Assembly: GCF_054482525.1 (NCBI RefSeq)
Contig: NZ_CM137006.1
DNA: 64,000 nt
Direction: 5' to 3' (one strand)
Position numbers: made by a program. Positions 1 to 3,000 of this stretch are shown piece after piece. The number at the start of each line of letters is the position of its first letter. Within the stretch, counting starts at the first letter, position 1.

Positions 1-3000
1 TGTGAAATTATTTTGTTTCCAATGATTTCAGGCGAAAACCTATCAATGCATCTGTTTTCAATAGGCAGCCACCTTCCGTGATTAACATGTTAATCACGGA
101 AGGTGAAAAGCTATCAATAATCGATATTTTCACGGAATTACCACTTAATACATCCCAAAAAATGCGCCATAAAATACCGGGCAATCTTTCCTGATACACA
201 TTATCACTGCACCAGCTATACAGAGACAAAATAATCTGCACCAGCCCCTGTAAATCGGTTATCTGTGCCAGTGTCCCGCCGCTCTACCTGTTCAGGGTTG
301 TGCCAGTTTCTGGCCCTTTGGTTTTCGGCCCTTTCCGGTCAGGCGCTGTTACCCTTATTGCCCCTTAACCTTTATGACCCTTTCCCTTTCTGACGCAACC
401 AGTTTATTTTGAAATGCTCCATGACAGTCTGCACCAGACTGTATTTTCACCACAGGATAACGATCACAAAGTGCAAAAAAATAACATGAAGCACCGAAGA
501 TTGTTAATCTATATGTAGCAGGTAATGATGTCAAAAACTGTCGCAGCATTTTTTATAAAATTATGAGACATTCTGTGGGCATATAATATATGTCACAAGA
601 TGCAGGAAAACAAAGAGAGAGTTTTCAGATATAATCCTGCGTCAGAATTAATGTGATGCCCCGGTGAATTTACATTTTAAAATTTCCCAGTCCCGTAATA
701 TCGGTAAAAACGATTGAAACACCAGCTATTAATCGGGAACGTTTCGAGTGATTACAGGGTAATCACTATAATATCCCGGCAAACTATATTGGTTAAGCAG
801 GAGAATCTGATCAGTTGATATTTATTCGTCATGCTGTAACGATATTTTCACAATATAAACCCGTTCGCCCCCTGCGCCAGATCCGGTACAGAGGGTACGA
901 TAAATCGCTGTCGTTACGCAGTAACGTACTATTTTGCGACATTCATGAATTCAGTCATTCCTCCCTCCAGCGGTAGCCGTACACCTGTTTCACCCAGCGA
1001 CCGCGACCGTCGCCATGACCCAGATCCGTCGCCGTCAGCGCCAGTGACTCCTTTTCGCTGAATCCCTGCGCCAGTATCCAGGACTGTCGTATAACGGGGA
1101 CGCCCGCCTTTGGTGCCAAATACCACTTTTAGCCGGGTTTCACCGCGGGAAATGGCTTTCAGCCACGTTTTCAGCGACTGTGAACTCTGTACCGCCTCCT
1201 GCGAACGCAGCCCCATCAGCCGCGCAATCTCCAGCGCTGCTGCCAGCCCTGCGTCCTGAGTACGGGCTTTCTCCATCACCTGCTGGTAATGTTCCGGCGT
1301 GATGGCGCGGCGCGTGCCGTTGCGCGAAGCGCCTGATACCCCTAATGCCTTATTGGTCAGACGCGGATGCTCCACCACCTGCCTGCGTCCAGCCTGTCTC
1401 AGCACGGCCCGCAACGCTGCCATTTCGTTTTGCAACGTTCGTAAACCAATATCCAGCTCCAGCCGTTCCTCAATGTAGCATTCGATATGGCGAACCTTGA
1501 TCTGCTCCACCCGCTGGATCTGGATATTCAGCGCCCGTAAATGTTCACTGAACCGTTTTGTAATATGGATACGGTCATTCACCGTTTTGAAGCTGCCGCC
1601 CGCTTTCTTCGCCAGCGCCTTCATTTCACTGCTTAATTTACTCATGAATCCCCCTGCAACAAAAACAAACAGTCTCCGGCGTGTGCTTTTTGGCTGCGCC
1701 AGAACGATACCTTTACGCCGGAGTGGTAGTTTGTTGAGGTTTAGGGAGTTTCAGGCTGTACGCAGTACAGACTGCCTGCGAAGCAGGAGTGTCTCCGGGG
1801 CTTCTTGCCCCCCTCGGTATCGATCTTTTTCTCCTTTACTCTTAGCTGACAGCGGCCCCAAAGGGCATGTCAGACGGCGGAAATATGGCGCAGGCCAGAA
1901 CTGGCGCGGCTTGTGGCGGTGAGTTGTGCGGCGTCACTTTGCTTTTTCGCTGGCGCGACCAAAGTGACGCCTCGTCTGGTGCAGGGGGTAAACGTTACGT
2001 TTCTGGTGCAGGGTGACGGTCACGCGGCAGCAAAGCCTGACGGCAATGCAGGCCGCAGCCCGTCAATGTAAGGCGCTGGTTGTCAGCAGAAGATAAAACC
2101 CGGCAAAGCCAGAGTGTCAGCCCGTAAAGCCGGGTATCTGGTGCAGTGATGGTGTATATGTACGTCAGTCTCAGATGCAGGTATTTTTGCATCCCCGGCG
2201 TTTTCAGAGATCAACGCCGGTAAAGGATGCCATGCTGGCGAAGCCAGGCGCTTCTTTCAGACGTGAAGCGACAAAGGGACTGCCCGGAGGCAGTTTGTTG
2301 CAGGCGGGAGACTGCGCCATTATTTCTGGTGCAGGAAGGAAAAACTGTTTCCGGGTTTAAAAGATTGTTTGCTTACCTGGTGACGGAAAAACTGCCGCGC
2401 TTCGCTTGTCTTCTCCCGGCGCGCTGCCAGCAAAAGCAGGCAGCGCGCCGGGAGAGTCTGGTTTTACTGTAACAATGCGCCTGACGGTTCAGCCATCAGG
2501 ATCGGCGTTTTTGCATGAGTCTTCCGGTACGGTTGCCCCGATCATCGATGTATCTGGACGGCCAGATAATTTCCGGTGATGTTTCCAGCGCATCCGCAAT
2601 CAGTTTTTCGCCGCGCGGCCTGGAGCGGGTCAGCGCATTTGCCAGCGTGGAAGACGCCAGCCCGGCCCTGCGGGAAACCTCAGCCAGCGATGTTCCCTTT
2701 TTTCTCAGGCCCGCGATAATATCGGCGGGGTGCCAGTCGGGTTGCATCATGCTGGCCTCCCGTCGATAACCTGTATGCCGTCAGCAGTACATATCCAGCG
2801 TGGGGCGTTCAGATTGGCGGCAAAATACCAGACCAGTTCGCACAGCAGCCCGGTCAGCGTGGTTTCGGTTTCCGGCAGCAGCACGTGGCCGTTCAGTATC
2901 TGCGTCAGCGCCAGGCAGTAATCGCAGAGTGATCCTGCATCAGGCTCAAACCGGGTGAAACATCGGGAAGATCATTCGTAATAAACCCGTCAATCAGATG

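What the first reader, a model, noticed from the sequence alone, without database searches (positions are those of the whole stretch)
70..105. Perfect 36-bp palindrome at the left edge
caccttccgtgattaacatgttaatcacggaaggtg is exactly self-complementary with 18-bp arms and no spacer, in a region with no convincing coding sequence. Perfect palindromes this long are unstable unless maintained, suggesting a dimeric protein binding site, a cruciform recombination site or a hairpin-forming element.
Basis: seen in the sequence. Interest (0 to 1): 0.35.

Follow-up and report, generated by a model that had tools for sequence, protein, structure and literature searches.

The report
Palindromic repeat array between two integrases
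The perfect 36-bp palindrome is real, but it is one unit of a short array of hairpin-prone, non-coding repeats between two integrase genes of a decaying E. coli genomic island, and most carrier strains have an imperfect copy, so it is a modest curiosity rather than a new system.

Summary
Window 70-105 is an exact 36-bp palindrome, by far the longest in the window (next best has 11-bp arms, as does the best of 100 shuffles).

It is not an isolated site. The window starts inside a roughly 490-bp AT-rich, non-coding array of ~70-bp quasi-palindromic units. Each unit has a variable palindromic core followed by a conserved box, GGTGAAAAsCTATCAATA. A sister palindrome lies 225 bp to the left, outside the window.

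The array sits in a 10.7-kb tRNA-Asn island of E. coli, between two genes that converge on it: a P4-type integrase and a second tyrosine-recombinase gene (PF12835), frameshifted here.

About 400 of 5,426 complete E. coli genomes carry the unit. 126 match a 44-mer spanning it exactly; 241 differ by 1-2 mismatches. Klebsiella, Serratia, Cedecea, Erwinia and others have the same gene pair with only ~205 bp between them and no array.

Across paralogous copies the two arms changed together at 5 pairs, and one allele had an arm rewritten to match its partner. That fits template-switch correction of imperfect palindromes. The half-sites GTGATTW-N5-6-WAATCAC occur three times and vary less than their surroundings, hinting at binding by a dimeric protein.

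Function is unproven. Interest is low to moderate.

The parts
70..105 (.). Perfect 36-bp palindrome, the core of unit U6 (type Y). Inner motif is GTGATTA-ACATGT-TAATCAC.
   Evidence: As single-stranded DNA the unit folds at -17.8 kcal/mol, z = -7.8.
49..119 (+). Whole unit U6 (about 71 bp): degenerate left box, palindrome, then right box.
   Evidence: Right boxes of neighbouring units are 70-71 bp apart.
102..119 (+). Right box of U6, GGTGAAAAGCTATCAATA. Its first four bases are the last four of the palindrome.
   Evidence: 2 matches in the window against 0.02 expected. Conserved in all units.
3..30 (.). Imperfect type-X palindrome (TGAAATTATTTTG-tttc-CAATGATTTCA), the core of unit U5, cut by the window edge.
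   Evidence: Better-paired alleles exist, for example CCTGAAATTATTTGGCTTCCAATAATTTCAGG in L003.
31..48 (+). Right box of U5, GGCGAAAACCTATCAATG.
120..165 (+). Array 'tail' (ATCGATATTTTCACGGAATTACCACTTAATACATCCC...). It starts like a further left box and follows the last unit in every allele.
   Evidence: A repeat of CGATATTTTCAC lies at 840-851 (family D11).
748..766 (.). Third palindrome with the same half-sites (GTGATTAC-agg-GTAATCAC), immediately followed by TATAAT. It is a degenerate outlying copy of the Y unit.
   Evidence: Arms are invariant and the centre variable in 14 loci.
208..437 (+). Block of CTG[CT][AG]CCAG iterons plus a CCCTT-rich element that bounds the array on the right. It belongs to the conserved core of the island, not to the array.
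929..1645 (-). Frameshifted PF12835/PF12834 tyrosine-recombinase gene, convergent with the P4-type integrase that lies left of the window.

Best explanation
**What is shown.** The palindrome is the best-preserved core of one unit in a tandem array of ~70-bp quasi-palindromic units. The array runs from L001 11680 to 12165, which is window -320 to 165. It is built from ~35-bp half-units in alternating orientation. It is AT-rich, non-coding DNA filling the spacer between the 3' ends of the P4-type integrase gene and a PF12835 recombinase gene, in a 10.7-kb degenerate tRNA-Asn island of E. coli. The array is accessory and lineage-restricted (Escherichia and some Salmonella), and its unit number varies.

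**What is inferred about the symmetry.** The dyad symmetry is regenerated by intrastrand template switching, in which one arm is copied from the other during replication. This explains three things: perfect copies, paired changes in both arms of paralogous copies, and one allele in which a whole arm was rewritten.

**What is inferred about function.** On top of this, the Y-type cores carry the motif GTGATTW-N5-6-WAATCAC. Its half-sites are conserved while the centre drifts, which is the signature of a site bound as duplex DNA by a dimeric protein. The protein is unidentified and may be host-encoded or lost from this decayed island. The site would most plausibly silence or regulate the integrase module. 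In this strain the site is probably a relic, because the PF12835 recombinase gene is a pseudogene here and the P4-type integrase is one in many carrier strains.
For: **Array structure**
- Right boxes lie at L001 11733, 11803, 11874, 12031 and 12102, with 70-71-bp spacing.
- Symmetry axes recur every ~35 bp.
- The units fold as extended hairpins.

**Context**
- The order is tRNA-Asn, integrase, bidirectional terminator, array, iterons with the CCCTT element, then the recombinase.
- attR lies at window 8797-8819.

**Not coding and not a known RNA**
-.

**Distribution**
- 398-441 of 5,426 E. coli genomes carry the unit, all on the chromosome.
- Plasmid and phage searches found no other copy of the units. 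The one plasmid-collection hit is a Salmonella India record carrying the same island module; the rest are chance matches.
- The array is absent from 7 other genomes that have the same convergent gene pair about 205-245 bp apart.

**Maintenance of symmetry**
- 5 of 18 pairs changed on both sides among Y paralogues, and 91.7% of cells are paired against 33-45% in slid controls.
- The central A.T pair became G.C in L006. It is too close to the centre to pair in a hairpin.
- In L005 the left outer arm of U1 differs in a cluster from L013 and L014 and is now the complement of the right arm, giving a 64-bp near-perfect palindrome.
- The template-switch mechanism is documented in E. coli (PMC7202029). 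It has been proposed to keep inverted repeats perfect across Proteobacteria (PMC5941160).

**Sequence constraint**
- The motif occurs 3 times in the intergenic region and nowhere else in 64 kb, with 0.00 expected.
- Half-site columns are variable at 2 of 42, against 90 of 419 in the rest of the array (p = 0.0075) and 5 of 17 in the centres (p = 0.017).
- The third site abuts a TATAAT.
Against: - No cognate protein was identified.
- The island's Ner-like HTH gene has no such motif near it, and island variants without that gene keep the palindromes.
- The array is dispensable: related islands in other genera lack it.
- Unit number ranges from 1 to 6, and X-type cores evolve fast, with 24 of 75 columns variable.
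- Within E. coli, three independent substitutions break the symmetry of this very palindrome and none restores it. About two-thirds of carriers are imperfect.
- No promoter-like site lies next to U6, and promoter-like hits are not enriched in the region.
- The conservation statistics rest on about 11 related sequences, so the p-values are optimistic.
- Spacing of 5 versus 6 bp between half-sites is awkward for a rigid dimer.
Confidence: 0.4

Rival explanations
1. Functionless, self-perpetuating palindromic filler. The array arose by inverted and tandem duplication in a tolerant spacer of the island. It stays palindromic only because template switching keeps correcting quasi-palindromes, and it is now decaying with the island.
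For: - The array, excluding Y cores, diverges 5-15% between lineages. That is as fast as or faster than integrase third-codon positions, which diverge 0.5-10.7%.
- Copy number varies, and the array is absent from other genera.
- Most carriers have a broken U6.
- Both flanking recombinase genes are often pseudogenes.
- The L005 allele shows a template-switch signature.
- A different, GC-rich palindrome with 21-bp arms sits at the same relative position in a Salmonella tRNA-Phe island.
- Literature: PMC7202029 and PMC5941160.
Against: - The GTGATTW half-sites are less variable than the rest of the array and than their own centres.
- They are shared by three paralogous sites whose outer sequences differ. 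Unbiased arm-to-arm copying should not lower the substitution rate.
- The unit architecture persists in both Escherichia and Salmonella.
Confidence: 0.3
2. RNA-level hairpins. The array is transcribed as the 3' untranslated region of one of the convergent integrase genes. Its stem-loops would act like REP/BIME elements, blocking 3' exonucleases or read-through into the opposing gene.
For: - The location is between convergent genes.
- In minimal islands the recombinase 3' region runs straight into the shared bidirectional terminator, so the array is inserted inside that transcription unit.
- The hairpins are predicted to be strong.
Against: - No U-tract follows the hairpin, and it was not called terminator-like.
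- There is no Rfam match.
- Mismatches show no strand bias towards G.U pairs: 35 would be wobble on the + strand and 35 on the - strand.
- The central pair, too close to the centre to pair in a hairpin, also co-varies.
- On the integrase side the array lies downstream of a good terminator.
Confidence: 0.12
3. Recombination core site, or folded hairpin site like an integron attC, for the neighbouring PF12835 tyrosine recombinase.
For: - The shape fits a simple tyrosine-recombinase site: 12-14-bp inverted arms around a 6-8-bp centre that differs between copies.
- An uncharacterised recombinase gene lies next door, flanked by inverted iteron blocks.
- The spacer behaves as a slot with variable content.
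Against: - Genera with the same recombinase lack the palindromes altogether.
- No partner site has an identical centre.
- ORF cargo in Serratia and Cedecea is not bounded by such units.
- No inverted junction was found in 401 genomes.
- X-type units have unrelated arms.
Confidence: 0.08
4. A cis-acting replication origin, transfer origin or partition site of the excised island, made of iteron- or centromere-like repeats.
For: - It is AT-rich with repeated dyad-symmetric units at regular spacing.
- There is a superficial GGTGAA resemblance to the type-I repeats of phage P4.
Against: - The island has no primase, replication initiator, relaxase or ParAB gene.
- The P4 cis-replication region (crr) has a different sequence and lies on the other side of the integrase gene.
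- No copy of the units was found on plasmids or phages.
- Related islands lack the array.
Confidence: 0.05

Closest known systems
REP/BIME clusters (extragenic palindromic units of enterobacteria)
   Same: Imperfect palindromes arranged head-to-tail in alternating orientation, in a non-coding spacer at the 3' ends of convergent genes. Copy number varies between strains.
   Different: This array is AT-rich and, as far as I recall the REP consensus (not compared here), unrelated to it in sequence. It is confined to one type of genomic island, with 1-3 loci per genome rather than hundreds. Its cores differ from unit to unit. No RAYT-type transposase was looked for or seen.
Quasi-palindrome template-switch hotspots (Ripley model; thyA and lacZ reporters in E. 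coli; PMC7202029, PMC5941160)
   Same: Imperfect inverted repeats become perfect through clustered, complementary changes. Symmetry extends to the central bases.
   Different: Those are mutational hotspots inside ordinary genes. Here the process would be acting over evolutionary time on a whole array of units.
Dyad-symmetric operators of dimeric helix-turn-helix proteins
   Same: Conserved 7-bp inverted half-sites, a variable centre, several copies in one control region, and one copy next to a -10-like hexamer.
   Different: No regulator is identified. The palindrome (18-bp arms) is much longer than a typical operator. Spacing varies between 5 and 6 bp. The site lies downstream of both flanking genes rather than at a promoter.
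Simple tyrosine-recombinase core sites (loxP, FRT, dif)
   Same: Overall geometry of 12-14-bp inverted arms around a 6-8-bp centre, with a tyrosine-recombinase gene nearby.
   Different: The centre is itself palindromic. There is no second site with the same centre, no rearrangement products were seen, and the site is absent where the recombinase is conserved.

Membership tests
REP/BIME | Clusters of palindromic units in alternating orientation in extragenic DNA at gene 3' ends | tested here: met
   Symmetry axes recur every ~35 bp. The array lies between convergent genes.
REP/BIME | High copy number dispersed around the chromosome | tested here: not met
   There is no other copy in the 64-kb window. 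Genomes hold 1-6 BLAST places each, and all that were examined lie in tRNA islands.
REP/BIME | GC-rich REP consensus sequence and an associated RAYT transposase | not tested
   The array is 30-37% GC. The REP consensus was compared only from memory, and RAYT was not searched.
Rho-independent terminator | GC-rich stem followed by a T/U tract | tested here: not met
   The scan calls the integrase terminator at L001 11624-11653 but not the palindrome. AAAAG follows the stem on the + strand and GCTGCC on the - strand.
Tyrosine-recombinase core site (lox/FRT/dif type) | Two inverted binding arms around a 6-8-bp central region | tested here: met
   CTTCCGTGATTA-ACATGT-TAATCACGGAAG, with the sister site CTTCTGTGATTT-GCCCGC-AAATCACAGAAG.
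Tyrosine-recombinase core site (lox/FRT/dif type) | A partner site with an identical central region, and recombination products | tested here: not met
   The centres differ between copies. There is no other copy. The inverted junction tested, which used the iteron repeats, was found in 0 of 401 genomes.
Tyrosine-recombinase core site (lox/FRT/dif type) | Co-occurrence with its recombinase | tested here: not met
   Seven other genomes keep the PF12835 gene and the integrase but lack the palindromes.
Integron attC | R''/L''...L'/R' boxes with GTTRRRY, bounding ORF cassettes next to an IntI-type integrase | tested here: not met
   Units abut one another with no ORFs. The box is CTATCAATA, not GTTRRRY. 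The recombinase belongs to PF12835/PF12834.
Phage P4 ori/crr iterons | TGTTCACC octamers, 120-bp direct repeats and an alpha primase-helicase gene | tested here: not met
   The P4 crr sequence and its position differ. The island has no primase gene.
Dyad-symmetric operator | Conserved inverted half-sites with a less conserved centre, in several copies | tested here: met
   GTGATTW-N5-6-WAATCAC occurs 3 times. Half-site columns are variable at 2 of 42, against 5 of 17 in the centres and 90 of 419 in the background.
Dyad-symmetric operator | Overlap with a promoter and an identified cognate regulator | tested here: inconclusive
   No promoter-like site lies at U6. Only the third site abuts a TATAAT. 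No regulator co-occurs with the motif.
Known RNA families (Rfam 15) | Match to a covariance model | tested here: not met
   There is no hit in the array at E <= 1. The neighbouring EFASI, C4 and isrK-like hits are elsewhere.
Quasi-palindrome template-switch product | Clustered changes in one arm that create complementarity to the other arm | tested here: met
   The left outer arm of L005 U1 compared with L013 and L014, and 5 compensated pairs among Y cores including the centre. The process itself cannot be observed with these tools.

The most novel reading that the evidence does not exclude
The palindromic units, together with the adjacent inverted CTGCRCCAG iteron blocks and the CCCTT-rich element, are cis-acting sites of the uncharacterised PF12835 recombinase/EFASI-RNA module. 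The spacer next to that module would be a dedicated slot where DNA segments are captured or exchanged, making it a previously undescribed island-borne recombination platform. The hairpin units would be its recombination or accessory sites.
Probability: 0.06. Interest if true: 0.7.

Novelty: new variant of a known kind. Interest (0 to 1): 0.27.

Why it matters
- If the protein-binding reading is right, the motif GTGATTW-N5-6-WAATCAC marks an unknown regulator, or host silencer site, acting on a widespread family of enterobacterial tRNA islands. These islands carry Rhs toxins, toxin-antitoxin genes and defence-type cargo.
- If the neutral reading is right, the array is a clean natural example of template switching keeping palindromes perfect over evolutionary time. 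It offers alleles at several stages: perfect, one mismatch, two mismatches, and a whole arm rewritten.
- Either way the finding corrects the impression of a unique 'maintained' palindrome. It also draws attention to the better-conserved, uncharacterised recombinase module next to it.

Tried and rejected
- **Coding sequence.** The four ORFs across the array have no Pfam match and low GC.
- **Known RNA.** Rfam gave nothing in the array. Counting mismatch types for a G.U strand bias gave 35 against 35.
- **Terminator.** Not called by the scan, and there is no T-tract.
- **P4 crr/ori homology.** The P4 genome was fetched. The crr sequence and position differ, and the island has no alpha gene.
- **Plasmid or phage origin.** BLAST against plasmids and phages and three IMG/VR pattern scans returned only chance hits, E. 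coli or Salmonella islands mis-called as viral, and one Salmonella India plasmid-collection record carrying the same island module.
- **Invertible segment.** I built the hypothetical inverted junction between the inverted iteron repeats (window 194-218 and 2135-2159). None of 401 matching E. coli genomes contains it.
- **Island-encoded regulator.** The Ner-like HTH_35 gene and its neighbour are present in islands with and without the array. The motif is absent from their own upstream regions.
- **Other copies.** The 18-mer half-site, the right box and the half-site motif were searched for elsewhere in the window, with no further copies.
- **Literature.** Searches for EFASI, PF12835 and Phage_int_SAM_2 found no functional study of the neighbouring recombinase.
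- **Known transcription-factor consensus sites.** CRP, FNR, Fur, IHF, LexA, parS, matS and the lambda operator were compared from memory only. None fits, and this is not a test.
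Full report
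**1. The observation**

Window 70-105 reads CACCTTCCGTGATTAACATGTTAATCACGGAAGGTG. It is exactly self-complementary, with 18-bp arms and no spacer. It is the longest perfect palindrome in the 64-kb window. The runners-up have 11-bp arms and look like ordinary terminator hairpins. In 100 block shuffles that preserve local composition, the longest perfect arm averaged 9.2 and never exceeded 11.

**2. Where it is**

The first 900 bases of the window are 100% identical to the chromosome of E. coli PCN033. I fetched the surrounding 25 kb as L001; window position 1 equals L001 position 12001. The gene order is:
- tRNA-Asn (L001 10092-10167);
- a P4-type integrase with an arm-binding domain (10329-11591, + strand; Pfam PF13356, PF22022, PF00589);
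- its terminator hairpin, a bidirectional terminator in other alleles (11624-11653);
- 1.3 kb with no annotation, which contains the palindrome;
- a frameshifted gene on the opposite strand for a second, small tyrosine recombinase (PF12834 and PF12835; window 929-1645; intact in other strains as WP_000041054.1);
- an EFASI RNA match just upstream of that gene, a Ner-like HTH_35 gene and a C4 antisense RNA;
- an Rhs core protein with a downstream TPR protein.

A direct repeat of the tRNA 3' end at window 8797-8819 marks the other end of the island. The palindrome therefore sits inside a 10.7-kb tRNA-Asn island, in the spacer between two convergent recombinase genes.

**3. It is one unit of an array**

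Reading leftwards past the window edge shows a second palindrome at L001 11845-11874, CTTCTGTGATTTGC-cc-GCAAATCACAGAAG. Its flanks match those of the window palindrome. Motif and hairpin scans show that the region from L001 11680 to about 12165 is an array of 70-71-bp units. Each unit has:
- a left box (TATTGATAG or TATCAATAGG);
- a short mismatched stretch;
- a palindromic core that differs from unit to unit;
- a conserved right box, GGTGAAAA(C/G)CTATCAATA.

The right boxes lie at L001 11733, 11803 (weak), 11874, 12031 and 12102. The last two are window 31 and 102, the only two matches in the window against 0.02 expected.

There are two kinds of core. Type Y is CTTCYGTGATT...AATCACRGAAG, which includes the window palindrome and its sister. 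Type X is GAAATTATT...AATAATTTC, which includes the imperfect one at window 3-30.

A scan for symmetry axes finds one about every 35 bp, both at unit cores and at unit junctions. The array is therefore built from ~35-bp half-units in alternating orientation. Folded as single strands, whole units form extended hairpins: -17.8 and -16.4 kcal/mol for the two Y units, with z-scores of -7.8 and -7.1. The array is 30-37% GC, against 55-60% in the flanking genes. Its short ORFs have no Pfam match, and no Rfam family matches it.

**4. Distribution**

| Question | Result |
|---|---|
| E. coli complete genomes carrying the unit | 398-441 of 5,426, always chromosomal |
| Copies per genome | One to three islands at different tRNA-Asn genes |
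| Exact match to a 44-mer spanning the palindrome | 126 genomes |
| One or two mismatches in that 44-mer | 241 genomes |
| More than two mismatches | 31 genomes |
| Plasmid and phage collections | No other copy of the units; one plasmid-collection hit is a Salmonella India record carrying the island module (L008) |
| IMG/VR pattern scans | Only chance hits, or E. coli and Salmonella islands called as viral |

I then searched one genome per species for the PF12835 protein. In Klebsiella, Cedecea, Erwinia, Pseudocitrobacter, an unnamed Enterobacteriaceae isolate and S. enterica subsp. arizonae, the two recombinase genes are convergent. Their spacer holds only the terminator, a few CTGCRCCAG iterons and a CCCTT-rich element. 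That makes about 205-245 bp, except in Cedecea, where cargo stretches it to 1,005 bp. Serratia lacks the iteron block before the CCCTT element. None has palindromic units. Serratia and Cedecea carry unrelated ORF cargo at that position.

Units are present in:
- E. whittamii, with three units;
- E. albertii, with two units;
- S. enterica, with one to four units that have different cores, for example CAAAATTATTCTAC|GTAGAATATTTTTG and CGTACAAAAAATTTTG-ggg(a/c)-CAAAATTTTTTGTACG.

The array is therefore a lineage-restricted, copy-number-variable insertion into a conserved module. It is not part of that module's core.

**5. How it evolves**

*Among E. coli alleles.* The array outside the Y cores differs by 5-15% between lineages. 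That is as much as or more than third-codon positions of the adjacent integrase gene, which differ by 0.5-10.7%. Most of the array looks unconstrained.

The window palindrome itself has taken three independent symmetry-breaking substitutions in different lineages: A15C, C28T and G34C. None has been compensated.

*Over longer distances* the picture reverses. Among the Y-type paralogues (unit U6, unit U3 and the single Y unit of a third island type), 5 of 18 pairs changed on both sides. Apart from the recent SNPs, the arms carry no one-sided difference. 91.7% of cells are paired, against 33-45% when the partner column is slid. One compensated pair is the central A.T to G.C change (ACATGT to ACGCGT). 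That pair lies too close to the centre to be base-paired in a hairpin, so hairpin stability does not explain it.

In one allele (L005/L033) the left outer arm of unit U1 differs from its orthologues in E. whittamii and E. albertii by a cluster of substitutions. These make it the complement of the right arm and produce a 64-bp near-perfect palindrome. Clustered changes that create complementarity are the signature of intrastrand template switching at quasi-palindromes. That mechanism is established experimentally in E. coli (PMC7202029). It has been proposed to keep inverted repeats perfect across Proteobacteria (PMC5941160). I take it as the most likely reason the symmetry persists and a perfect 36-mer exists. 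It needs no selection.

**6. A hint of sequence-specific constraint**

The Y cores share an inner motif, GTGATTW-N5-6-WAATCAC. It occurs at U3, at U6 and at a third place, window 748-766 (GTGATTAC-agg-GTAATCAC). The third place is a degenerate outlying copy of the unit, immediately followed by TATAAT. The motif occurs nowhere else in the window or in the 25-kb locus, with 0.00 expected.

Across 11-14 alleles:
- half-site columns are variable at 2 of 42;
- centre columns are variable at 5 of 17 (Fisher p = 0.017);
- the rest of the array is variable at 90 of 419 (Fisher p = 0.0075).

Unbiased copying between arms should not lower the substitution rate. This pattern therefore points to some purifying selection on the half-sites, as expected for a duplex site bound by a dimeric protein. 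The evidence is modest: the sequences are related, the spacing varies by one base, and no regulator co-occurs with the motif. The Ner-like HTH gene is present in islands with and without the array, and some array-bearing islands lack it.

**7. Alternatives**

- *Functionless filler.* This is nearly as likely as the binding model. Everything except the half-site conservation fits it.
- *RNA hairpins in a 3' untranslated region (REP-like).* The location fits. Against it are the lack of G.U strand bias (35 against 35), the covarying central pair and the lack of a U-tract.
- *Recombination site for the PF12835 enzyme.* The 12-6-12 geometry fits. But other genera keep the enzyme without the site, no partner has the same centre, and no rearrangement was detected. 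I tested the hypothetical inversion between the inverted iteron repeats and found it in none of 401 genomes.
- *Replication, transfer or partition site.* The island has no matching genes, and the P4 crr comparison failed.

**8. Comparison with what is known**

In arrangement the array most resembles BIME clusters of REP elements: alternating palindromic units between convergent genes. It fails REP membership on copy number and dispersal. Its AT-rich composition also differs from GC-rich REP elements, though I did not test it against the REP consensus. In its evolution it behaves like a natural series of quasi-palindrome template-switch events. In the conservation pattern of the Y cores it resembles an operator. 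It is not a terminator, an attC site, a CRISPR array, P4 iterons or any Rfam family. I found no description of this array or of the neighbouring recombinase's function in the searchable literature.

**9. Verdict**

The feature is real and non-random. The 'perfect, maintained, unique' reading does not hold:
- it is one repeat among several;
- it is accessory to a decaying island;
- it is imperfect in most carriers;
- a known mutational process can explain its symmetry.

A protein-binding role for the conserved half-sites is plausible but unproven. I rate it a new variant of a known kind (an island-restricted palindromic-unit array), with low to moderate interest. The more conserved and more puzzling object nearby is the PF12835 recombinase/EFASI module, with its inverted iteron blocks and CCCTT-rich element. 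I list it under things noticed in passing.

Noticed in passing
window 208-437 (+ strand) and 1976-2333 (- strand); also L016-L028: Blocks of CTG[CT][AG]CCAG motifs in inverted orientation flank the PF12835 recombinase gene and the EFASI RNA. They include a 25-nt inverted repeat (194-218 and 2135-2159). The layout is conserved in Klebsiella, Serratia, Cedecea and S. arizonae. It looks like the ends of an invertible or mobile cassette, but the inverted junction was found in 0 of 401 E. coli genomes.
   Followed up: partly
window ~313-400; L008, L013-L029: A CCCTT-rich stretch of about 90 nt, reading as roughly seven AAGGG motifs on the recombinase strand. It follows directly after the recombinase stop codon in minimal islands and is conserved in at least 10 genera. 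RNAalifold shows no covariation and only a weak fold, and no Rfam family matches. It could be an array of protein-binding sites or an unstructured GGA-rich 3' untranslated region.
   Followed up: partly
window 1701-1828 (-), 3261-3349 (-), 3371-3446 (-): Rfam matches: EFASI RNA (100.8 bits) immediately upstream of the frameshifted PF12835 recombinase gene; C4 antisense RNA (62.2 bits); and isrK-like and c4-a1b1 matches just below their gathering scores.
   Followed up: no
window 912-926; L014 (E. albertii) intergenic region: A 15-bp palindrome, CGTTACGCAGTAACG, lies next to the recombinase stop codon. In E. albertii four copies of it bracket a small inserted ORF, as if it were a boundary or recombination site for inserted DNA.
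   Followed up: no
L016 4865-5599, L021 4865-5869, L041 4386-4800: The spot between the integrase terminator and the iteron block behaves as a slot with variable content. It is empty in several genera. It holds ORF cargo in Serratia and Cedecea; in Cedecea the cargo is flanked by a duplicated half of the terminator. In a Salmonella tRNA-Phe island it holds an unrelated GC-rich palindrome with 21-bp arms.
   Followed up: partly
L005 2599-2662 (E. coli PS2Canimalfeces12; same in L033): A 64-bp near-perfect palindrome with 31-bp arms and a 2-nt centre, -27.5 kcal/mol as single-stranded DNA. It is the allele of array unit U1. One arm appears to have been rewritten to match the other.
   Followed up: yes
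window 3729-7910 and 7967-8515; 8797-8819; 24060-24082: An Rhs core protein (1,393 aa) with a variable C-terminal tip, followed by a TPR protein, forms the island's cargo. The island's right end is a repeat of the tRNA-Asn 3' end. Another tRNA-Asn copy lies at 24060-24082 on the - strand.
   Followed up: no
L001 10329-11591 and orthologues in L002-L006, L030-L035: RefSeq annotates the P4-type integrase next to the array as a pseudogene (internal stop or frameshift) in most carrier strains examined. The island family therefore seems largely immobilised in E. coli.
   Followed up: no
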